A stretch of 49,925 nt of DNA. It comes from Parcubacteria group bacterium. GTDB lineage: Bacteria > Patescibacteriota > Minisyncoccia > 2-02-FULL-40-12. Numbering within the stretch: position 1 is the stretch's first letter; the number at the start of each line of letters is the position of its first letter. Location: NCBI GenBank assembly GCA_016186395.1, contig JACPLU010000007.1, positions 1 through 49,925 of the forward strand, read 5' to 3'. The notes beneath the pieces are model-generated. The model had not been told where the DNA came from and ran no database searches. It worked only from the letters and a program-made list of their open reading frames with translations. Shown here piece after piece: positions 4,737-20,710 of this stretch. Made by a program: the position numbers and the translations under genes.

Positions 4737-4867
4737 ACATTCAATATAACAATTCTAAAAATGAAAGTCTAAGGTAAAAAGGCCCCGCCAGGGCTGGGGT
4801 TTGCAAAGAAAGAGAAAAAGTATTATTCACTAAATTAGATTATGGTCAAATTAACCAGAATGCTTAG

Positions 4868-15268: not shown

Positions 15269-15502
15269 ATGAATGCAAATCAGAAGTCAGAACTCCAACA
15301 GCTCCTTGAAAAAAACGCATACGGCACTGGATTATCTCCAGAAAAACAGAGTCGCGCTCATCAGCTCATTGCCAATCCTGACTTATCGGAAAAAAATTGC
15401 TGGGTCTGTGAAATATCACGTCCTGACGATACTCAAAAAGCTATTTTTGATACCGGACTTTGCCAAGGACACGCCCGCTATGCGTTAGTCACAAGGAAAT
15501 GA
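15269..15502 (+). CDS. hypothetical small protein (77 aa, CxxC...C..H)
   Basis: A strong SD (AAGGAGG) lies 7 nt upstream of the ATG and an intrinsic terminator follows directly. No family recognised. Confidence 0.6.
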   Translation: MNANQKSELQQLLEKNAYGTGLSPEKQSRAHQLIANPDLSEKNCWVCEISRPDDTQKAIFDTGLCQGHARYALVTRK

Positions 15503-15510
15503 TTGCTTCG

Positions 15511-15536
15511 GAGCCGCCATTGCGGCTCTTTTTCTT
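15511..15536 (+). terminator. intrinsic terminator
   Basis: GAGCCGC-CATT-GCGGCTC followed by TTTTTC. Confidence 0.8.
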
Positions 15537-15597
15537 TTCCCTACGCCCCATTACACCCAATACACTTCTCCCGGTAAAGAAATGCCGCATAAAATTA

Positions 15598-15626
15598 TTT
15601 ACAATCATTATTTGTCTTGATATTCT
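15598..15626 (+). promoter_or_regulatory. promoter P1 of the tRNA-like RNA
   Basis: TTTACA-N17-TATTCT. The predicted TSS (~15633) coincides with the first base of the 12-bp terminal helix. Confidence 0.5.
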
Positions 15627-15632
15627 GAATCT

Positions 15633-15710
15633 GCGGTGGGGGTGGCTTAGTTGCGGGATTCGGCTTACCATCCAGAGTCCTCGGGGTGCAAATCCCCGCA
15701 CCTCCACCGC
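15633..15710 (+). ncRNA. tRNA-like RNA resembling a tmRNA tRNA-like domain (acceptor helix, GGAUUCG box, T-arm, ACC end) with no anticodon arm or mRNA-like domain
   Basis: GCGGTGGGGGTG (15633-15644) pairs with CACCTCCACCGC (15699-15710). The T-arm is CGGGG-TGCAAAT-CCCCG (15682-15698). GGGATTCGGC resembles the tmRNA GGAUUCGAC box. Confidence 0.5.
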
Positions 15711-15734
15711 ATCAAAGGATATCCACATAACTTA

Positions 15735-15762
15735 TTGACAGAATTTTACATTTTGCTATACT
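15735..15762 (+). promoter_or_regulatory. promoter P2 (extended -10)
   Basis: TTGACA-N16-(TGc)TATACT. Near-duplicate of P3. Confidence 0.65.
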
Positions 15763-15768
15763 TAACGC

Positions 15769-15840
15769 AGATGGTAAGCCGAATCCGCTTCTAAGTTAGG
15801 ATTCCTGGAAAGCCGCAGAAATGCGGTTTTTTGGTTTTTT
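15769..15840 (+). ncRNA. ~70-nt small RNA; its 5' 28 nt are complementary to the internal loop of the tRNA-like RNA
   Basis: GATGGTAAGCCGAATCCGCTTCTAAGTT (15770-15797) is the imperfect complement of 15644-15672. Also has hairpin GAATCC/GGATTC and terminator CCGCA-GAAA-TGCGG plus a U-run (15811-15840). Confidence 0.55.
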
Positions 15841-15915
15841 AGTAACCAACCGCAGGCCTGCCGAAGCCTCGGCATAGGTGGGGATTTTCTTTATTTTAAG
15901 CCATTTTTTCAGCTA

Positions 15916-15943
15916 TTGACAAATTCTGTCAGTTTGCTATACT
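15916..15943 (+). promoter_or_regulatory. promoter P3 (extended -10)
   Basis: TTGACA-N16-(TGc)TATACT. The predicted TSS context cAGAT is the same as at P2. Confidence 0.65.
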
Positions 15944-15949
15944 TATTTC

Positions 15950-16165
15950 AGATTAGACCTTTAAACGGTGGGGTTGGCAGTGCCCCATAGGATCCGGATA
16001 AGCCGCGTGATGAAGCAACACGTGCCACGGGAGAAGTCTCGGGGTGGAAACAGGAGCTAGGAAGATCGTTTGGAGAATCTAGATGTACTCCAGGCGTGAA
16101 ACTTAGTCCTAACCCGAGAACTGCCAACATTTCATCCACCACTCTGTTGGTGGATTTTGCTTTTT
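15950..16165 (+). ncRNA. ~215-nt structured RNA of unknown class with its own promoter and terminator
   Basis: Helices GTTGGCAG (15973-80)/CTGCCAAC (16121-28), TCTCGGG (16037-43)/CCCGAGA (16113-19) and CGCGTG/CACGTG. Terminator ATCCACCA-CTCTGT-TGGTGGAT plus TTTTGCTTTTT (16134-16165). GC-rich in an AT-rich genome. Confidence 0.55.
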
Positions 16166-16606: not shown

Positions 16607-16684
16607 TTTGAAAACCGAACCTATTTTAACATCTTCAACATCTTCTCAAATGGCCACGCATTAATGACATGGTTTTTTTGTTTA
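16607..16684 (-). pseudogene. orphan copy of the polX 3' end (last ~20 codons, stop and ~15 nt downstream)
   Basis: About 90% identical to 18869-18942. Would encode KQKNHVINAWPFEKMLKMLK*, against polX ATKNHVINAWPLEKMLRMLK*. No upstream polX body. Confidence 0.8.
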
Positions 16685-16705
16685 AGTTTACTAACACTAA
16701 AATAC

Positions 16706-16918
16706 TTATCTAAAGTCTTTTTCATTTAAATTAGATTGGCGAAGAATAGACTTAAAAGTTCCAACTGGAATCTCTTTTTTATTTGCTGGGACTATAACTA
16801 TTAGTTTAATCCTGCCGGATTTATAAAATTTCATGTGACTTCCTTTTTGCGAAGTAAAAACAAAGCCCTTCTTTTTAAGGACTTTAATAATATAGTCGGA
16901 TGAATGAAGCTTAGACAC
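16706..16918 (-). CDS. hicA: HicA-family mRNA interferase toxin
   Basis: 70 aa with ...KKKGFVFTSQKGSHMKF...VPANKKEIPVGTFKSILRQ. The GTG start overlaps the hicB stop (GTGTCTAA). Confidence 0.85.
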   Translation of the reverse strand: MSKLHSSDYIIKVLKKKGFVFTSQKGSHMKFYKSGRIKLIVIVPANKKEIPVGTFKSILRQSNLNEKDFR

Positions 16919-17132
16919 GAGAATTAAAACTTAGTATTTGCGGTCTTTCAATTTTTGGAATAACTGGCTTTTTAGTATCCTCAAAATATAACTCTAGAGC
17001 TTCTTTTACGTTACTTACGGCCTCTTTTTGGCTTTTACCAAAGCTTGAAACATCAACATTCAAACATTGAGCAACAAAGTATTTACCCTCCTTCCAAACG
17101 ACTATTTTAAGATTTTGAATATATTTAAACAT
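16911..17132 (-). CDS. hicB: HicB-family antitoxin (UPF0150 fold only)
   Basis: 73 aa with ...VVWKEGKYFVAQCLNVDVSSFGKSQKEAVSNVKEALELYFED. Upstream of hicA and translationally coupled to it. Confidence 0.8.
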   Translation of the reverse strand: MFKYIQNLKIVVWKEGKYFVAQCLNVDVSSFGKSQKEAVSNVKEALELYFEDTKKPVIPKIERPQILSFNSRV

Positions 17133-17164
17133 ATACTTAAATTTACATCACTGAAATAAAAAAA

Positions 17165-17375
17165 TCAAACAACAACTGCCCGCAGAACCGTCTGATTTTA
17201 TAACTCTATGGCATCGTCGAGGACGAGGGCGAAGAGCCCACCTACGACGAACAGTTGTATACTGCCTAGGTTGAGGCGTTTCGAGCCATTGGCTCGTTCG
17301 CCTAACCAACTAAACTGCCTGTGCCCCGCATCGTGTTTGTGAAAGCAAACTCCGATGCGGGGCTCTTTTTTCTTT
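17165..17375 (+). ncRNA. GC-rich structured RNA with a strong plus-strand intrinsic terminator (5' end undefined)
   Basis: Helices ACAACTG (17172-78)/CAGTTGT (17252-58), CGTCG..GGGC-GAAGA-GCCC..CGACG and GGTTGAGGCG...CGCCTAACC. Terminator GCCCCGCATCG...CGATGCGGGGC plus TCTTTTTTC (17323-17375). Confidence 0.45.
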
Positions 17376-17384
17376 GCCAAAATC

Positions 17385-17410
17385 CATCCCCATGACCCAC
17401 ACCTTTGTTG
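17385..17410. repeat. module-junction motif copy M4
   Basis: CATCCCCATGACCCACACCTTTGTTG, directly after the terminator of the GC-rich RNA. Confidence 0.6.
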
Positions 17411-17440
17411 TTTATCCCATTTCATAAAATGTCATACTGA

Positions 17441-17800
17441 CTACACCTTCCTTTGTCTTTCTATAACTAACCCATCAAGCGCGTCTCTCATTTTTGTAAG
17501 TGACTTTCTAAAGTATTTTTCAAAAAATATAGCAGGGATATCAAATACTGCATAAAACAGCCACAATTCAGTACTTTTCACACCGTATTTCTTCATTAAC
17601 TTTTTCACCCCACCCGAAACGGTAAATTTCCCTACCCCTTCTTTAATAGCCAACGCAGTCGTATTCGGACAATTCTTTTCACCTTGCACAAACGGCCCTT
17701 TGCAGATATTTTCTGGAACCAACCTACCTTTCAACTCTCCCAGTTGTTGCTCGGAAAGATCGAATTTCCTGATTATCTTCTTGTATAATTGCTTAATCAT
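17441..17800 (-). CDS. hypothetical protein (119 aa)
   Basis: ATG start preceded by GGGAGA. No recognisable family. Confidence 0.5.
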   Translation of the reverse strand: MIKQLYKKIIRKFDLSEQQLGELKGRLVPENICKGPFVQGEKNCPNTTALAIKEGVGKFTVSGGVKKLMKKYGVKSTELWLFYAVFDIPAIFFEKYFRKSLTKMRDALDGLVIERQRKV

Positions 17801-17808
17801 ATATTATA

Positions 17809-17840
17809 TCTCCCATGACATCTTTACACTTTGTTGACTG
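17809..17840. repeat. module-junction motif copy M5
   Basis: TCTCCCATGACATCTTTACACTTTGTTGACTG. Confidence 0.65.
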
Positions 17841-17855
17841 TCACACACGATTTTA

Positions 17856-18341
17856 TCAATCTTTTACTAAAATCTTTACTCCTAAAATTTGGTTTAATTT
17901 TTCGGCTATCTTTCTACCTTCGTCGCTAAATAACCATGCAAATAATTTGACATTTTCAATGTGTGGGATAGCATCTACTGTTTCTTTAAACATTTCAATC
18001 ACCAACCCCCTCCTTCTATGTTCCGGTACCGTAAACGCGGCACAAAGATATAATGCTTCGTATCTATCTTGCGGTTTAGTCAGATCGAGTAATTCACATT
18101 CGTTAATTTCTCCTCTTAAAAACTTACCCATTAACTCTATTTGGGTCGGTAATACAACTACCCAACTGATCGGTTCTCCATTCTTTAATCTGTAAACGAC
18201 AGTTTTTGGATGCAACTCTTGCAGTTTATAGAATGACTCTCTCGTCATCGGCATCTGATTAGGATCGTCTGCTGTTCCAAAAAACCGTTCCGCGATATTT
18301 AACATTTTGTCTAACACTTTTTCATCCATATTTTTCTTCAT
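17856..18341 (-). CDS. GNAT-like acetyltransferase (weak assignment)
   Basis: 161 aa. ...FTVPEHRRRGLVIEMF resembles the acetyl-CoA-binding motif A (R/Q-x-x-G-x-G/A) and the size fits a GNAT fold. Confidence 0.35.
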   Translation of the reverse strand: MKKNMDEKVLDKMLNIAERFFGTADDPNQMPMTRESFYKLQELHPKTVVYRLKNGEPISWVVVLPTQIELMGKFLRGEINECELLDLTKPQDRYEALYLCAAFTVPEHRRRGLVIEMFKETVDAIPHIENVKLFAWLFSDEGRKIAEKLNQILGVKILVKD

Positions 18342-18360
18342 GACCTATGACACTTTTGTT
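18336..18360. repeat. module-junction motif copy M6
   Basis: CTTCATGACCTATGACACTTTTGTT, nearly identical to M1. Confidence 0.7.
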
Positions 18361-18462
18361 TTTTCAATAACTGCGTATATTTTTTGTTGGAAAGGTATAC
18401 TTTTCATTTTTTAAATATTAGTATTAATATCACAATAATAGAATAATTACAGAGGATTGAAA

Positions 18463-18792
18463 ATGAAGTTAGAAGAGTTCTTTAAAAATTTGGCCAAAAT
18501 AAAAGGAGAATATAACTGGTATATTACCCACGGTGAACTGATCAGAGCAAATAGAAAAACAAATAAATCAATAACCTATTGTCCAGTAACGGCAATGTAC
18601 CGGTCACTAAAAAATAAAACTCTTAATACTTATAGCATAGAAAAAGCGGGTACAAAGTTAGGACTTTCAATACGAGATCTGACTAAAATCCAAAATGCTT
18701 CAGATTTTGAAGGCCCAATTTCAGAAACCCGCAAGAGAATCCTTGAAATACTTAAACCTGAAAAAAGAAAAGATATACCTTCTTTACTTTAA
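18463..18792 (+). CDS. hypothetical protein (~109 aa)
   Basis: The ATG at 18463 lies 7 nt after AGAGGA. The ORF track starts at a TTG at 18457. No family recognised. Confidence 0.5.
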   Translation: MKLEEFFKNLAKIKGEYNWYITHGELIRANRKTNKSITYCPVTAMYRSLKNKTLNTYSIEKAGTKLGLSIRDLTKIQNASDFEGPISETRKRILEILKPEKRKDIPSLL

Positions 18793-18877
18793 TAACCCTA
18801 GCCCTTCGGCGATTCGACCACTTCGACAGGCTCAGGACAAGCAAGCTCACCGCAAGCTGCGCTCAAGGTTGAAATTT

Positions 18878-20710
18878 TTACTTTAACATCCTCAACATCT
18901 TCTCTAACGGCCACGCATTAATCACGTGGTTTTTTGTTGCCCAACCACGACGAGCTTGGGCTATACCATATTCCAACCAGCCAAAATGTGAAATATTATG
19001 AGCATCCGAATTTATGGCAAATTTTATTCCACCCATATCAACCGCTTTTCGAATATACTCATCTTTTAAATCTAACCGATCTGGACCAGCATTTATTTCC
19101 AAAACAGTTTTTGTAAGCTTTGCGGCTTTTAATATTTCGTCTATATCAAGTTTAATTGCTTCTCTGCGACCGATAATCCGTCCAGTTGGATGAAAAATGA
19201 TATCTACGTTTTGGTTTTCCATAGCACGAATTACTCTAGCGGTTTGTTCTTTTTCTGAAAGATTAAAATGAGAATGAACAGATGCACCAACAACATCTAA
19301 CTTTGCCAATACTTCATCTACGATATCTAATGAACCATCTTTTAAAATATTTACTTCCGCGCCTTTGAGAACGTGAAACTTGGAACCTACCCGCCCCGCT
19401 TCGCTTGGCGAGGCCGGGGAAACATGAAACTCCTTATTGATTTTATCTATTTCAGTCATTTGTTTAAGCAACTTCTTTTCGTCGCTTCCACCAGTCATGG
19501 CTAAAGATTTGGTATGATCTGTAATACAAATATATTCAAGACCGGCTTTCTTTGCAGCCTCGGCCATTTCTTTAATTGAATTTTCTCCGTCAGTCCAATT
19601 TGTTTGAGTTTGTAAATCCCCCTTTATTGAATTATAAGAAATAAGATCTGGCAGTTTTCTTTCTTGGCCAGCTTCAATTTCTCCATGATTTTTTCTAATT
19701 TCTGGCGGGGGATAACTCATACCAAGTGCCTCATAAATTTCTTCCTCTGTTTTCCCTGCAACTAATTTTTTGTCCTTATATAAACCGTACTCATTAAGCT
19801 TATAGCCTTTTTCCGCCCGAGGCGGATCCATCTTTGGCGGAGAATTTTTAATTTTGTATAACCCATACTCATTTAATGTATATCCCTTACTAAGAGCTAT
19901 CTCTCGCAATTTAATATTATGATATTTATCGCCGGTAAAATACTGCAATGCCGCACCGAATGATTCCGGCGGCAAAACCCGTAAATCCGCATCCATCCCA
20001 ATATCTAAACGAACGGTAGATTTTGTTTCACCTTTACCATATACCGCCATTACTTCTGGCATAGAAACAAAAAAGTCCATCACTTCTGATGGTTTTTTTG
20101 AAATGACAAGAATATCCAAGTCACCAATTGTTTCCTGCATTCGCCTTAATGACCCGGCAGGCATGACTTTTTCAACTCCAGGTACTTTTTCAAGTCTTTC
20201 TATAATCCTACGGGCAATCGGCAGTACTTCGCCAAGATTAAACCTCCCATGACTTTGTTTTAAAAAAGAAATGCTTTGTAATAGTTTTTGTTCTGTTTTT
20301 TCACCAAAACCCTCAATATCGCGAAGCTTATGACTGACAAGTGCTTTTTCTAATTGAGCGACCGTTTCGATATCTAACTTTTTATAAAGTTTTAAAATTT
20401 TCTTTGGGCCCAAACCTTCAATTTTACTTAAATTCTCTAAATCAACTGGAACTTCTTTTTTAAGTTTATCAAAATCTTCTACATGTCCGGTTTTAATATA
20501 TTCCTCAATTCGTTCAGAAATTCCCTTACCTACACCAGGAATTGCCTCAAGTCCTTTAATCCCCGATTTTTTATAAATCTCAACCACATCTTCACTTAAA
20601 GTTTCAATTGCATACGCTGCTTTTTCAAAAGCTCGAGGCTTAAAAGGAATTTCTTTCATATCCAAAAGAATAGCTACTTCATTTAATAATTTTGCTAATT
20701 TTTCATTCAT
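18878..20710 (-). CDS. polX: family X DNA polymerase with C-terminal PHP domain
   Basis: 610 aa with HhH motifs (GIGKG...), a Pol-beta-like nucleotidyltransferase core (GSLRR...GDLDIL) and PHP histidines (HTKS..., SVHSH, NSDAH). Confidence 0.9.
   Translation of the reverse strand: MNEKLAKLLNEVAILLDMKEIPFKPRAFEKAAYAIETLSEDVVEIYKKSGIKGLEAIPGVGKGISERIEEYIKTGHVEDFDKLKKEVPVDLENLSKIEGLGPKKILKLYKKLDIETVAQLEKALVSHKLRDIEGFGEKTEQKLLQSISFLKQSHGRFNLGEVLPIARRIIERLEKVPGVEKVMPAGSLRRMQETIGDLDILVISKKPSEVMDFFVSMPEVMAVYGKGETKSTVRLDIGMDADLRVLPPESFGAALQYFTGDKYHNIKLREIALSKGYTLNEYGLYKIKNSPPKMDPPRAEKGYKLNEYGLYKDKKLVAGKTEEEIYEALGMSYPPPEIRKNHGEIEAGQERKLPDLISYNSIKGDLQTQTNWTDGENSIKEMAEAAKKAGLEYICITDHTKSLAMTGGSDEKKLLKQMTEIDKINKEFHVSPASPSEAGRVGSKFHVLKGAEVNILKDGSLDIVDEVLAKLDVVGASVHSHFNLSEKEQTARVIRAMENQNVDIIFHPTGRIIGRREAIKLDIDEILKAAKLTKTVLEINAGPDRLDLKDEYIRKAVDMGGIKFAINSDAHNISHFGWLEYGIAQARRGWATKNHVINAWPLEKMLRMLK
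19371..19431. repeat. in-frame 51-nt GC-rich hairpin insert in polX flanked by a 10-nt direct repeat
   Basis: acgtgaaact ... acatgaaact flank CCCCGCTTCGC-TTG-GCGAGGCCGGGG. Encodes FHVSPASPSEAGRVGSKFHV. Confidence 0.65.
19775..19882. repeat. in-frame 48-nt insert in polX flanked by a 30-nt diverged duplication
   Basis: Y(K/T)LNEYGLYK is encoded twice (19775-19804 and 19853-19882) around a core containing TCCGCC-CGA-GGCGGA. Confidence 0.65.

What the first reader, a model, noticed from the sequence alone, without database searches (positions are those of the whole stretch)
15598..16165. Three consecutive promoter-to-terminator non-coding transcription units in an accessory islet
Within 570 bp there are three sigma70-type promoters: TTTACA-N17-TATTCT, then two near-duplicate TTGACA-N16-TGcTATACT boxes with identical cAGAT start contexts. 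Each is followed by GC-rich, helix-rich sequence in a roughly 35% GC background. Units 2 and 3 end in clean intrinsic terminators. Only compositionally implausible ORFs (15489..15728, 15948..16142) cross the region. I recognise no standard housekeeping RNA (RNase P, SRP, 6S, canonical tmRNA) in any unit. A dense, self-contained ncRNA locus next to hicAB and other accessory genes could be an RNA-based system such as regulation, decoy or addiction.
Basis: partly seen in the sequence, partly recalled or inferred. Interest (0 to 1): 0.8.

Follow-up and report, generated by a model that had tools for sequence, protein, structure and literature searches.

The report
Mini-tmRNA with its own antisense RNA
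Units 1 and 2 form a pair conserved across CPR (ultra-small) bacteria: a tag-less, tRNA-like-domain-only copy of the ribosome-rescue RNA tmRNA, plus a neighbouring small RNA that co-evolves to stay complementary to it, an arrangement I found described nowhere; unit 3 is an orphan RNA of unknown function.

Summary
The promoters, terminators and lack of Rfam hits are real, but the locus is not three equivalent units.

**Unit 1 (15633-15710)** is a tmRNA tRNA-like domain (TLD) with no mRNA-like domain. It has a 7-bp acceptor stem with G3·U70, then A-C-C, and a T-arm. Both acceptor strands and the T-arm are identical to those of bona fide permuted tmRNAs. It has no terminator.

**Unit 2 (15769-15840)** is a ~65-nt sRNA. 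Its first ~28 nt are antisense to Unit 1's D-loop analogue, P2 5' strand and P2 loop.

Exact-pattern scans recovered 25 distinct Unit1+Unit2 modules in CPR genomes and metagenomes. In every one, Unit 2 matches its own Unit 1:
- 94.7% of cells are paired, and 17 of 21 pairs show double-sided changes.
- G·U outnumbers A·C 41 to 6.
- Cognate duplexes average -42.7 kcal/mol against -21.7 for non-cognate.
- The antisense promoter is as strong or stronger in all 25 (stronger in 22).

Best reading, which is inferred: a TLD-only tmRNA mimic that competes with trans-translation and is held in check by a dedicated antisense RNA, resembling an RNA-RNA toxin-antitoxin.

**Unit 3 (15950-16165)** has no homologue anywhere searched and no significant fold. 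It may be a remodelled Unit 1 copy.

The parts
15598..15626 (+). P1, a weak sigma70-type promoter of Unit 1 (TTTACA-N17-TATTCT). The predicted start is G15633.
   Evidence: 9/12 matches. A -10-like hexamer lies 6-7 nt upstream of the GCGGU leader in most of 25 loci, with a mean of 7.9/12 hexamer matches and never an exact TTGACA.
15633..15710 (+). Unit 1, a CDS-less mini-tmRNA consisting of the tRNA-like domain only.
- 5-bp leader/trailer extension: 15633-15637 with 15706-15710.
- Acceptor stem: 15638-15644 with 15699-15705, with G3·U70. A-C-C follows at 15706-15708.
- 2-bp mini D-stem with its loop: 15645-15654.
- P2 hairpin: 15655-15681.
- T-arm: 15682-15698 (CGGGG-UGCAAAU-CCCCG).
   Evidence: - Fold is -44.6 kcal/mol, z = -4.4.
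- The 3' 26 nt and the 5' GGGGGUG are identical to ARAGORN-called permuted tmRNAs.
- CM R1 scores 96 bits here and 83-100 bits in 24 other CPR loci.
- All 9 P2 pairs covary.
- It is not called by ARAGORN or Rfam.
15645..15672 (+). The target segment of Unit 1 bound by Unit 2: the D-loop analogue, the P2 5' strand and the P2 loop.
   Evidence: (I1).
15719..15727 (+). ATATCCACA, a DnaA-box-like motif (consensus TTATCCACA) between the end of Unit 1 and the -35 of P2.
   Evidence: The same motif sits at the same offset (9-11 nt after CCACC) in 10 of 25 modules, with 4 looser copies. It is not enriched in the window overall. Its function was not tested.
15735..15762 (+). P2, the near-consensus promoter of Unit 2 (TTGACA-N16-TGcTATACT). 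The predicted start is A15769 or G15770.
   Evidence: 11/12 matches plus TG. TTGACA is exact in 21 of 25 loci, with a mean of 10.6/12 matches. P2 is stronger than P1 in 22 of 25 loci and never weaker.
15769..15840 (+). Unit 2, the cognate antisense sRNA.
- Antisense segment: 15770-15796. The first ~11 nt are a free 5' tail against the P2 loop.
- Its own hairpin: 15781-15804, whose loop is antisense to the D-loop analogue.
- A-rich linker.
- Intrinsic terminator: 15805-15840.
   Evidence: - 17/17 perfect match, extended to ~28 nt; duplex -42.6 kcal/mol.
- Covariation across 25 loci.
- Architecture is conserved, with no conserved ORF; 16 of 25 have no ATG..stop ORF at all.
- Terminator.
15916..15943 (+). 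P3, the promoter of Unit 3 and a 78% copy of the P2 region.
   Evidence: 11/12 matches plus TG; D1.
15950..16165 (+). Unit 3, an orphan ~215-nt transcript with a terminator at 16134-16165. Its first ~90 nt resemble a Unit 1 (leader, acceptor 5' strand, D-loop region, T-stem 5' half), but the T-arm and acceptor 3' strand are not intact. It is not part of the conserved module.
   Evidence: - Fold z = -1.6.
- Local alignment to Unit 1 sequences scores 40, against 24.2 +/- 3.2 for shuffles.
- Not hit by the Unit 1 CM.
- No homologue found.
- Duplex with Unit 1 is no better than shuffles.

Best explanation
**Shown**
- Unit 1 is a tmRNA reduced to its tRNA-like domain. It keeps the alanine-type acceptor stem with G3·U70, A73-C-C, the T-arm and a reduced D-loop. 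A short capped P2 hairpin stands where the mRNA-like domain would be. There is no tag reading frame.
- Unit 2, transcribed ~60 nt downstream on the same strand from a much stronger promoter, is a ~65-nt sRNA. Its 5' ~28 nt are complementary to Unit 1 from just after the acceptor stem through the D-loop analogue, the P2 5' strand and the P2 loop.
- Free Unit 2 exposes an unpaired 5' tail complementary to the P2 loop. It also presents the anti-D-loop sequence in its own hairpin loop. These are two nucleation sites, as in classical antisense RNAs.
- The pair is an autonomous module found in several CPR lineages. The variable pairing segment co-varies between the two genes and differs between modules, including two modules in one genome.

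**Inferred**
- Folded Unit 1 acts as a tmRNA mimic. It would bind SmpB, and possibly AlaRS, EF-Tu and stalled ribosomes, but cannot supply a message. It therefore competes with or short-circuits trans-translation, as engineered TLD-only RNAs do in E. coli.
- Unit 2 neutralises it by invading P2 and the D-loop to form a ~28-bp duplex. That duplex destroys the tRNA-like elbow and SmpB site and is a likely RNase III substrate.
- Two features keep antisense in excess: the strong P2, and obligatory read-through of P1 transcripts into Unit 2. If Unit 2 synthesis stops, the stable tRNA-like RNA is freed.
- This is the logic of an RNA-toxin/RNA-antitoxin (type VIII-like) module, or an addiction/abortive module.

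Unit 3 is a lineage-specific, probably Unit 1-derived transcript and is not part of the module.
For: **TLD identity**
- The 26 nt GGGGTGCAAATCCCCGCACCTCCACC are identical to the acceptor pieces of 8 IMG/VR contigs, 6 of which ARAGORN calls permuted tmRNA.
- Their coding piece starts with the same GGGGGUG.
- Fold z = -4.4. All 9 P2 pairs covary.

**No message**
- No tag ORF in Units 1-3 (read). ARAGORN is negative. tmRNA_permuted scores 15 bits against a gathering score of 47.

**Antisense pairing**
- 17/17 match. Per-locus duplexes are -35 to -50 kcal/mol in 25 of 25 CPR modules.
- 94.7% of cells are paired, against 78.5% for shuffles and 27-39% for slid controls. 17 of 21 pairs show double-sided changes, in 108 compensatory cells.
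- G·U versus A·C is 41 to 6, so the pairing is between + strand RNAs, not a DNA repeat.
- Cognate duplexes average -42.7 +/- 4.3 kcal/mol, non-cognate -21.7 +/- 7.4. The cognate partner is best in 20 of 25. The two L018 modules are orthogonal.

**Stoichiometry**
- P2 is stronger than P1 in 22 of 25 loci and never weaker.
- There is no terminator after Unit 1. The read-through transcript is bistable.

**Autonomy and accessory character**
- Only the module is shared between loci. Close relatives exchange the variable cassette.

**Literature**
- TLD-only RNAs strongly inhibit tmRNA, perhaps by titrating SmpB, and phage DS6A encodes one (PMC4131195; PMC11915505).
- Patescibacteria normally have a standard tmRNA: 5252 in 6765 genomes. 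Unit 1 is therefore an extra gene.
- Two-RNA type VIII toxin-antitoxin systems exist (PMC10532202).
Against: - There are no expression, processing, charging, SmpB-binding or toxicity data.
- Presence of canonical ssrA and smpB in these same genomes was not verified. No smpB lies in the window or fetched loci, and only fragments of each genome were available.
- The invariance of the acceptor stem, G3·U70 and T-arm across loci is imposed by my search patterns. It is not independent evidence.
- In the primary transcript the 3' A-C-C is base-paired to a conserved 5-nt leader: U-1 in 25/25, G-3 in 25/25, with covarying outer pairs. Alanylation therefore needs prior processing and may never happen.
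- Most genomic contexts are housekeeping rather than mobile or defence, which fits a regulatory role as well as a selfish one.
- The sequences are phylogenetically related, so the shuffle statistics overstate independence.
Confidence: 0.5

Rival explanations
1. A benign regulatory pair. Unit 1 is a useful housekeeping RNA, either a tag-less ribosome-rescue RNA (as proposed for CDS-less organellar tmRNAs) or an alanine-accepting tRNA-like donor for a non-ribosomal reaction. Unit 2 simply tunes how much of it is active. There is no toxicity or addiction.
For: - The anatomy and covariation are the same as for the best explanation.
- Contexts are mostly housekeeping, and two loci lie beside class-I release factor genes.
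- CDS-less tmRNAs in mitochondria and plastids are thought to help with non-stop mRNAs (PMC11915505).
- The UGC T-loop is shared with real tmRNAs.
Against: - A dedicated, near-perfect 28-nt antisense RNA with a near-consensus promoter is more than tuning usually needs.
- So are orthogonal specificities within one genome and cassette swapping between close relatives.
- Only 9 of 185,579 species representatives match the exact pattern. This weakly suggests a patchy, accessory distribution, but the pattern is strict.
Confidence: 0.25
2. The roles are reversed. Unit 2 is the effector sRNA acting on some other target, and Unit 1 is a stable tRNA-like sponge or decoy that buffers it.
For: - The extended complementarity is symmetrical by nature.
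- A tRNA-like fold would make a long-lived sponge.
Against: - Apart from its terminator and an A-rich linker, the Unit 2 sequence is fully dictated by its own Unit 1 and varies from module to module. No constant seed is left for a third target.
- The constant, constrained parts are in Unit 1: acceptor, T-arm and D-loop.
Confidence: 0.08
3. A new split tmRNA. Unit 1 is the acceptor part, and Unit 2 (or Unit 3) docks by base pairing and provides the tag message.
For: - The weak Rfam tmRNA_permuted hit joins the Unit 1 T-arm to the Unit 3 5' end (15 bits).
- Unit 2 pairs where P2 would extend toward a message.
Against: - There is no conserved ORF or stop codon in Unit 2; 16 of 25 have no ORF.
- The pairing covers the D-loop analogue and so would disrupt the TLD.
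- Unit 3 is not conserved.
- Patescibacteria carry standard tmRNAs.
- ARAGORN, which finds permuted forms, is negative.
Confidence: 0.03
4. A DNA-level feature or decay product. The inverted repeat could be a recombination or inversion site, or an integration scar at a tmRNA-like gene. The units could be pseudogene debris with chance promoters.
For: - tmRNA genes are frequent integration sites (PMC9580842).
- An accessory islet lies nearby.
- Logan assemblies break inside the locus.
Against: - The repeat tolerates G·U but not A·C (41 to 6), which is a signature of RNA on one strand.
- Promoters, terminator and both folds are conserved in 25 loci from several CPR lineages.
- No second copy of the Unit 1 3' end exists in the window.
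- The islet is bounded by a duplicated polX 3' end, not by Unit 1 sequence.
Confidence: 0.02

Closest known systems
CDS-less ('TLD-only') tmRNA genes. Examples are mycobacteriophage DS6A, the ~65-bp genes of Mallomonadaceae plastids, jakobid/oomycete mitochondrial tmRNA, and the 'Standard, no CDS' class that includes 3 instances in Patescibacteria (9FT-COMBO-53-11 sp001772805). Sources: Hudson et al. 2014, PMC4131195; Nawrocki, Petrov & Williams 2025, PMC11915505.
   Same: A one-piece tmRNA tRNA-like domain of ~70 nt without a tag reading frame. Unit 1 may well belong to the same class as the three Patescibacteria sequences those authors flagged as 'may lack tag reading frames'.
   Different: Neither of the two papers I read describes an antisense partner for those forms. 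Here a cognate antisense sRNA gene is always adjacent and co-varies. Unit 1 also carries a conserved 5-bp extension of the acceptor stem. I could not compare sequences with their database.
Engineered TLD-only tmRNA fragments that inhibit trans-translation in E. coli (Mao et al. 2009, as cited in PMC4131195).
   Same: The same kind of molecule. It provides the only experimental basis for expecting Unit 1 to antagonise tmRNA, perhaps by titrating SmpB, whether or not it is chargeable.
   Different: Those are artificial constructs in E. coli. Nothing was tested for the CPR RNA.
Type VIII toxin-antitoxin systems, in which toxin and antitoxin are both RNAs (SdsR/RyeA, CreT/CreA; the examples are from my own knowledge, the type definition from PMC10532202).
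   Same: - A two-gene, all-RNA module.
- Neutralisation by an RNA antitoxin.
- The antitoxin promoter is stronger than the toxin promoter.
- Orthogonal specificities occur.
- CreT also acts on the translation apparatus, by sequestering a tRNA.
   Different: - Toxicity here is unproven.
- The putative toxin is a tmRNA mimic.
- The genes are tandem and non-overlapping, unlike SdsR/RyeA, which overlap. The complementarity must therefore be kept by co-evolution.
- No Cas proteins are involved, unlike CreA.
Classical antisense-RNA control pairs with loop/tail nucleation (CopA/CopT, RNAI/RNAII, Sok/hok; from my own knowledge).
   Same: The antisense RNA has a structured body and exposed complementary loop and tail. 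Its target site sits in a hairpin loop. An extended duplex is the end state.
   Different: Those are cis-encoded on opposite strands and target an mRNA or a primer. Here the antisense RNA is trans-encoded in tandem and its target is a tRNA-like non-coding RNA.
Two-piece tmRNA from circularly permuted ssrA genes (alpha- and beta-proteobacteria, cyanobacteria).
   Same: The T-arm and both acceptor strands are identical to alpha-type examples. Two RNAs are held together by base pairing.
   Different: Unit 1 contains both acceptor strands in normal order. There is no coding piece, no tag and no pseudoknots. The pairing partner covers the D-loop region instead of completing P2.

Membership tests
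tmRNA (ssrA) | A 7-bp acceptor stem with a G3·U70 alanine identity pair, discriminator A and a 3' CCA. | tested here: met
   GGGGGUG pairs with CACCUCC, with G·U at pair 3, followed by A-C-C (15638-15644, 15699-15708). The terminal A is not encoded in the window (ACCG), though it is encoded in 7 of 25 homologues. Both strands are identical to real tmRNAs.
tmRNA (ssrA) | A T-arm (5-bp stem, 7-nt loop) contiguous with the acceptor 3' strand, no anticodon arm, and a reduced D-loop. | tested here: met
   The T-arm is CGGGG-UGCAAAU-CCCCG (15682-15698), identical to ARAGORN-called tmRNAs. There is a 2-bp mini D-stem that covaries (CG 19, UA 6). No anticodon arm is present, and the Rfam tRNA model gives no hit.
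tmRNA (ssrA) | An mRNA-like domain: resume codon, tag reading frame ending in a stop, pseudoknots. | tested here: not met
   P2 is capped by an 8-11-nt loop. There is no tag ORF in Units 1-3. ARAGORN is negative. Rfam tmRNA models score below threshold (15 bits against 47).
tmRNA (ssrA) | Works with SmpB, is charged by AlaRS, and its 5' end is made by RNase P. | not testable with these tools
   No smpB lies in the window or fetched loci. U at -1, favoured by bacterial RNase P (my own knowledge), is invariant in 25/25. However, it is paired to A73 in a conserved stem extension.
CDS-less / TLD-only tmRNA forms | A one-piece gene of ~65-80 nt containing both TLD halves and nothing that can be translated. 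| tested here: met
   Unit 1 is 78 nt. CM R1 recovers 25 CPR copies at 83-100 bits and 7 'type B' copies at 54-61 bits.
Permuted two-piece tmRNA | An acceptor piece (P2 3' strand, T-arm, acceptor 3' strand) lies upstream of a coding piece that starts with the acceptor 5' strand and carries the tag. | tested here: not met
   Unit 1 has its own 5' strand. Units 2 and 3 have no tag. The tmRNA_permuted CM gives 15 bits. ARAGORN detects the permuted form in L004-L010 but not here.
Type VIII (RNA-RNA) toxin-antitoxin | The antitoxin RNA specifically recognises or neutralises its cognate toxin RNA. | tested here: met
   Recognition is met at the level of predicted pairing and covariation. Neutralisation itself was not tested.
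Type VIII (RNA-RNA) toxin-antitoxin | The toxin RNA arrests growth when the antitoxin is absent; the antitoxin is labile and made in excess. | not testable with these tools
   Support is indirect only. P2 is stronger than P1 in 22 of 25 loci. The tRNA-like fold is very stable. TLD-only RNAs inhibit tmRNA in E. coli.
Bacterial Y-RNA-like (YrlA) tRNA-like RNAs | A tRNA-like module on a long Ro/Rsr-binding stem, encoded next to rsr/rtcB. | tested here: not met
   There is no Rfam hit to Y-RNA-like families. No rsr/rtcB-type neighbour recurs among the loci.

The most novel reading that the evidence does not exclude
CPR bacteria carry a previously unrecognised class of all-RNA toxin-antitoxin (or abortive-defence) modules.
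- The toxin is a tmRNA tRNA-like-domain mimic that shuts down ribosome rescue.
- The antitoxin is a tandem-encoded antisense RNA.
- A ~28-nt hypervariable 'specificity cassette' co-evolves in both genes and is exchanged between strains. This gives orthogonal modules within one cell.
- A related antisense-less TLD-only gene travels with IS1/IS1595-type elements in other bacteria.
Probability: 0.35. Interest if true: 0.9.

Novelty: new variant of a known kind. Interest (0 to 1): 0.8.

Why it matters
**What is new**
- tmRNA is one of the best-studied bacterial RNAs. Natural tag-less, TLD-only copies have so far been curiosities in organelles, one phage and a few flagged MAG sequences.
- Here such a copy is a recurrent gene in several CPR lineages, always coupled to a dedicated antisense RNA.
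- That coupling implies the TLD-only RNA is active enough to need control. It gives the first natural setting in which to ask what a message-less tmRNA does.

**If it antagonises trans-translation**
- It would be an endogenous RNA inhibitor of ribosome rescue with an RNA antidote.
- It would be a new toxin type for RNA-RNA toxin-antitoxin systems.
- It would be a ready-made orthogonal sense/antisense toolkit, with 25 natural specificities.

**Other consequences**
- It is a rare example of long, near-perfect trans complementarity maintained purely by co-evolution.
- ARAGORN and Rfam miss both genes, so the module is invisible in current CPR annotations.

Tried and rejected
- **Known RNA families.** Rfam found only two tRNAs in the window at gathering score. 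In the region at E<=10 it gave only sub-threshold noise: rnk leader driven by the terminator, mascRNA 20.6 bits, tmRNA_permuted 15 bits. I compared Unit 3 by eye with RNase P, SRP, 6S and riboswitch motifs, found no convincing match, and dropped it.
- **tRNA or tmRNA finders.** ARAGORN calls nothing at Unit 1 in the window or in 31 loci.
- **Phage origin.** There was no blastn hit in 50,697 phage records. The Unit 1 pattern and two Unit 3 patterns gave nothing in IMG/VR.
- **Unit 3 homologues.** All of these were empty: nhmmer/blastn against all fetched loci and the rest of the window, a two-anchor pattern in JGI metagenomes, a search with its longest ORF against 5.8 billion proteins, and the Unit 1 CM.
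- **Unit 3 as partner of Unit 1 or Unit 2.** Duplex energies are no better than shuffles.
- **Tag ORF in Unit 2.** None is conserved.
- **Conserved protein partner next to the module.** All-against-all clustering of neighbours found none. It found only spurious ORFs over Unit 1 and clade-specific neighbours.
- **att-site scar.** There is no second copy of the Unit 1 3' end in the window.
- **DnaA-box clustering in the window.** Not enriched.
- **Literature.** Searches on tmRNA with CPR, Patescibacteria or Saccharibacteria, on tmRNA-like antisense or antitoxin, and on Saccharibacteria small RNAs found no description of this module. The library is incomplete.
Full report
**1. Checking the observation**

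The sequence contains the features described.
- P1 is TTTACA-N17-TATTCT at 15598-15626.
- P2 (15735-15762) and P3 (15916-15943) are TTGACA-N16-TATACT boxes preceded by TG. They are the two best promoter matches in a 3-kb scan.
- P2 and P3 are a 78% direct repeat over 40 nt, including the cAGAT start.
- Intrinsic terminators follow Unit 2 (stem 15805-15834 plus T-run) and Unit 3 (stem 16134-16155 plus T-run). Nothing terminator-like follows Unit 1.
- Only short ORFs cross the region.
- Rfam at gathering score finds just two tRNAs elsewhere in the window, and ARAGORN finds no tmRNA.
- At E<=10 the region gives only sub-threshold hits. Two were informative: a tRNA-like family (mascRNA, 20.6 bits) on 15638-15705, and tmRNA_permuted (15 bits against a gathering score of 47) starting at the same T-arm.

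Folding beats dinucleotide shuffles for Unit 1 (-44.6 kcal/mol, z = -4.4, 0 of 200) and Unit 2 (z = -2.9, 3 of 200). It does not for the spacer (z = -0.15) or Unit 3 (z = -1.6, 12 of 200). Local GC is 45-48% in 200-nt windows, against 30-44% around it.

**2. What Unit 1 is**

Unit 1 folds into four elements:
- A 12-bp closing stem. Its inner 7 bp are GGGGGUG/CACCUCC with a G·U at the third pair, followed by A-C-C.
- A 2-bp mini D-stem.
- A 9-bp hairpin, here called P2.
- A T-arm, CGGGG-UGCAAAU-CCCCG, directly abutting the acceptor 3' strand.

A 20-nt probe from the T-arm and acceptor hit 8 IMG/VR contigs. The identity there extends over 26 nt (GGGGTGCAAATCCCCGCACCTCCACC). ARAGORN of the 8 circularly permuted tmRNA, with tags of the form ANDNFA..LAA. 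The coding piece of one of them starts with the same GGGGGTG. Unit 1 therefore has both halves of a genuine tmRNA tRNA-like domain (TLD) in normal order. A capped hairpin stands where the mRNA-like domain should be, and there is no tag frame.

**3. The antisense partner**

The repeat finder reported a perfect 17-nt inverted repeat between the Unit 1 P2 5' strand and loop (15656-15672) and the first bases of Unit 2 (15770-15786). With a 1-nt bulge and a 2x2 internal loop, the pairing continues through the D-loop analogue. It covers Unit 1 nt 8-36, counting from G+1.

**4. Relatives**

An exact-pattern scan of one genome per GTDB species used GGGGGTG-N30-60-GGTGCAAATCCCCGCACCTCCACC. It found 10 copies on 9 contigs, all labelled CPR: Saccharibacteria x4, Uhrbacteria x2, Doudnabacteria, Yanofskybacteria with two copies, and one unnamed complete 0.9-Mb chromosome. 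A slightly looser pattern found 27 JGI metagenome contigs. After removing duplicates there are two groups.
- **25 distinct CPR-type modules.** In every one, Unit 1 is followed after ~40-65 nt by a TTGACA...TAnnnT promoter and a 52-70-nt sRNA with a terminator. The 5' ~28 nt of that sRNA are complementary to that locus's own Unit 1, at -35 to -50 kcal/mol.
- **A second group, 'type B'.** Seven GC-rich contigs have the TLD but no antisense partner (-20 to -28 kcal/mol, background level).

Nothing in these loci is called by ARAGORN or Rfam at the module. A covariance model built from 22 Unit 1 sequences gives 96 bits in the window, 83-100 bits for the CPR type and 54-61 bits for type B. It finds only one copy in the window.

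**5. Covariation**

The analysis used an alignment of Unit 1 plus the first 36 nt of Unit 2 (A1, 25 sequences).

Intermolecular helices:
- 94.7% of cells are paired, against 78.5 +/- 1.0% when partners are shuffled among sequences and 27-39% when the partner is slid by 1-3 columns.
- 17 of 21 pairs show changes on both sides, in 108 compensatory cells.

Unit 1's own fold is supported as well:
- All 9 P2 pairs have double-sided changes.
- The mini D-stem pair covaries (CG 19, UA 6).
- The two outer pairs of the leader/trailer extension covary.

So both the folded TLD and the Unit 1:Unit 2 duplex are under selection, as alternative states.

Non-Watson-Crick cells in the intermolecular helices are overwhelmingly G·U (41) rather than A·C (6). 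With two problem columns removed the split is 21 to 5, binomial p = 0.0025, though cells are not phylogenetically independent. That asymmetry is expected for pairing between + strand RNAs. It is not expected for a DNA inverted repeat or for minus-strand transcripts.

Specificity is high:
- Cognate duplexes average -42.7 +/- 4.3 kcal/mol and non-cognate -21.7 +/- 7.4.
- The cognate partner is best for 20 of 25 Unit 1 sequences. The exceptions are near-identical alleles.
- The two modules that sit 1.1 kb apart in L018 cross-pair poorly (-23 and -28.5, against -38.5 and -39.8).

**6. Anatomy of Unit 2 and of expression**

Free Unit 2 is predicted to have four parts, and this architecture recurs in the homologues:
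- An unpaired ~11-nt 5' tail, antisense to the P2 loop.
- A hairpin whose stem mimics the Unit 1 P2 stem and whose loop is the anti-D-loop sequence.
- An A-rich linker.
- The terminator.

There is no conserved ORF; 16 of 25 have no ATG..stop frame.

P2 is near-consensus everywhere (mean 10.6 of 12 hexamer matches, exact TTGACA in 21 of 25). P1 is weak (mean 7.9, never an exact -35). P2 is stronger than P1 in 22 of 25 loci and never weaker.

The -10 of P1 places the start at the first base of the 5-nt leader. No locus has a terminator between Unit 1 and P2, so P1 transcripts should continue through Unit 2. The 209-nt read-through RNA is predicted to be bistable. Its MFE structure keeps the TLD, and its centroid forms the Unit 1 x Unit 2 duplex.

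**7. Context**

- Apart from the module itself (about 15611-15845), the window shares DNA only with L038.
- L038 has the window's upstream flank but a different variable segment in Unit 1, with a matching Unit 2. L040 has the window's variable segment in different flanks. The variable cassette is therefore exchanged among close relatives.
- Logan assemblies from two runs break at exactly 15701 and 15914. This fits a repeated or polymorphic stretch.
- Neighbouring genes differ from locus to locus and are mostly housekeeping: rpoC, ftsW, secA, ileS, secDF, purD, and release factor in two loci. No protein family is consistently adjacent and no smpB is nearby.
- The hicAB islet is therefore coincidental. 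It is bounded by a duplicated polX 3' end.

**8. What is known**

Nawrocki, Petrov and Williams 2025 (PMC11915505):
- They report standard tmRNAs in Patescibacteria at the usual MAG rate (5252 in 6765 genomes), plus 3 'Standard, no CDS' instances.
- They mention CDS-less forms in mitochondria, two plastids, phage DS6A and 'two bacterial groups [that] may lack tag reading frames', one of them 9FT-COMBO-53-11 sp001772805.

Hudson et al. 2014 (PMC4131195):
- They note that DS6A encodes little more than the TLD.
- They note that a similar molecule, chargeable or not, strongly inhibits tmRNA, perhaps by titrating SmpB (citing Mao et al. 2009).

Two-RNA toxin-antitoxin systems (type VIII) are recognised (PMC10532202). 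I found no paper describing an antisense partner of a TLD-only tmRNA, but the library is incomplete.

**9. Mechanism**

Shown:
- A TLD-only tmRNA paralogue and a co-evolving antisense sRNA form an autonomous module.
- Both the TLD fold and the intermolecular duplex are selected.
- The antisense promoter is as strong or stronger in all 25 loci (stronger in 22).

Inferred:
- Folded Unit 1 mimics tmRNA for SmpB, and perhaps for AlaRS, EF-Tu and stalled ribosomes. Because it cannot provide a message, it competes with trans-translation.
- Unit 2 nucleates on the P2 loop and D-loop and zips up ~28 bp. This erases the elbow and SmpB site and creates an RNase III-type substrate.
- Excess antisense keeps the mimic silent. 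Loss of Unit 2 synthesis would release a stable tRNA-like RNA.

I put this toxin-antitoxin-like reading at about 0.5. A benign 'tuned tag-less rescue or alanine-donor RNA' reading gets about 0.25. The sponge, split-tmRNA and DNA-level readings are well below that.

Open points:
- The conserved pairing of the leader with the 3' A-C-C (U-1 and G-3 invariant, and not constrained by my patterns) means charging requires processing and may not occur.
- The constancy of the acceptor and T-arm among homologues is imposed by the search patterns.
- Canonical ssrA and smpB in the same genomes were not verified.

**10. Unit 3**

- It has a near-consensus promoter (a copy of P2) and a good terminator, but no significant fold.
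- It has no homologue in IMG/VR, in JGI metagenomes, in 36 fetched loci, or via its longest ORF.
- Its pairing with Unit 1 or Unit 2 is no better than chance, and the Unit 1 CM does not hit it.
- It is absent at the equivalent place in L020 and L038.
- Its first ~90 nt align locally to Unit 1 sequences better than shuffles do (score 40, against 24.2 +/- 3.2 with a maximum of 35). The aligned parts are the leader plus acceptor 5' strand, AGUGC, GGAUCCG, and GUCU-CGGGGUGgAAA. It lacks an intact T-arm, G3·U70 and an acceptor 3' strand.
- Most likely it is a lineage-specific, remodelled duplicate of a Unit 1 driven by a duplicated P2. Its function is unknown and my confidence is low.

**11. Verdict**

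The specific content is different and more interesting: a tag-less mini-tmRNA with a dedicated, co-evolving antisense RNA, conserved across CPR lineages and invisible to standard annotation. I rate it a new variant of known kinds (CDS-less tmRNA; RNA-RNA antagonist pairs), with interest 0.8.

Noticed in passing
L025 2014-2084, L027, L029, L035, L037, L042, L043 (metagenome contigs): A second group of TLD-only tmRNA-like genes ('type B', CM R1 54-61 bits) lies in GC-rich contigs that do not look like CPR. They have no antisense partner. In all 6 loci with enough flank, they sit within 500 nt of an IS1/IS1595-type DDE transposase gene. In L025 a 27-nt, 96% inverted repeat (1463-1489 / 4739-4765) brackets the mini-TLD and the transposase gene, as if the RNA gene rides inside an IS-like element.
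   Followed up: partly
window 15719-15727; same offset in L013, L015, L020, L023, L024, L036, L039, L040, L047: A DnaA-box-like motif (TTATCCACA / TATCCACA) sits 9-11 nt after the end of Unit 1 and just upstream of the Unit 2 -35 in 10 of 25 modules, with 4 looser copies. Such motifs are not enriched in the window as a whole. It could tie antisense transcription to DnaA status, or it could be an RNA-level element of the Unit 1 trailer.
   Followed up: partly
window 15633-15637 with 15706-15710, and all 25 homologues: The 5 nt upstream of G+1 pair with A73-C-C plus two trailer bases, extending the acceptor stem to 12 bp. U-1 and G-3 are invariant and the outer pairs covary. The predicted transcription start is the first base of this extension.
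   Followed up: partly
window 15701 and 15914: Logan assemblies of two sequencing runs (SRR12113430, SRR12113420) are 100% identical to the window but end and start exactly at these two positions. The stretch carrying the Unit 1 3' end, Unit 2 and the spacer is missing. This suggests repeats or strain polymorphism there.
   Followed up: partly
window 16621-16725 (-) and 18878-20710 (-): A 34-aa ORF repeats the C-terminal ~20 residues of the PolX-like gene. The hicA / hicB-like / GNAT segment between them (16621-18878) looks like an insertion with a duplicated target at the polX 3' end.
   Followed up: no
window 17170-17370 (+): Another GC-rich (52% in a 200-nt window) intergenic stretch lies between the hicB-like gene and the 119-aa gene. 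It ends in a strong terminator hairpin (about 17323-17369) and has no Rfam match. It is a possible further small RNA.
   Followed up: partly
L018 4072-4148 (+) and 5249-5325 (-): One Yanofskybacteria contig carries two complete modules in opposite orientation, 1.1 kb apart, with different and mutually orthogonal pairing segments.
   Followed up: yes
L013 4272-5156 and L019 5409-6356: In two loci the module lies next to a class-I peptide chain release factor gene (PCRF + RF-1 domains). The L019 copy shows the CUU UGA C frameshift site typical of prfB (read by eye).
   Followed up: partly
L030 (Unit 2 region, about 60-230 nt after Unit 1): Unit 2 of this module carries a ~100-nt insertion inside its hairpin loop, between the anti-D-loop sequence and the 3' strand of the hairpin.
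   Followed up: no
L030, L036, L039 (neighbouring gene): Three related modules lie beside a ~400-aa protein with an N-terminal Zn-ribbon and a PD-(D/E)XK nuclease domain.
   Followed up: no
L013 963-1281 (-): There is a group I intron hit (54.6 bits) about 4.5 kb from the module in a Saccharibacteria contig.
   Followed up: no
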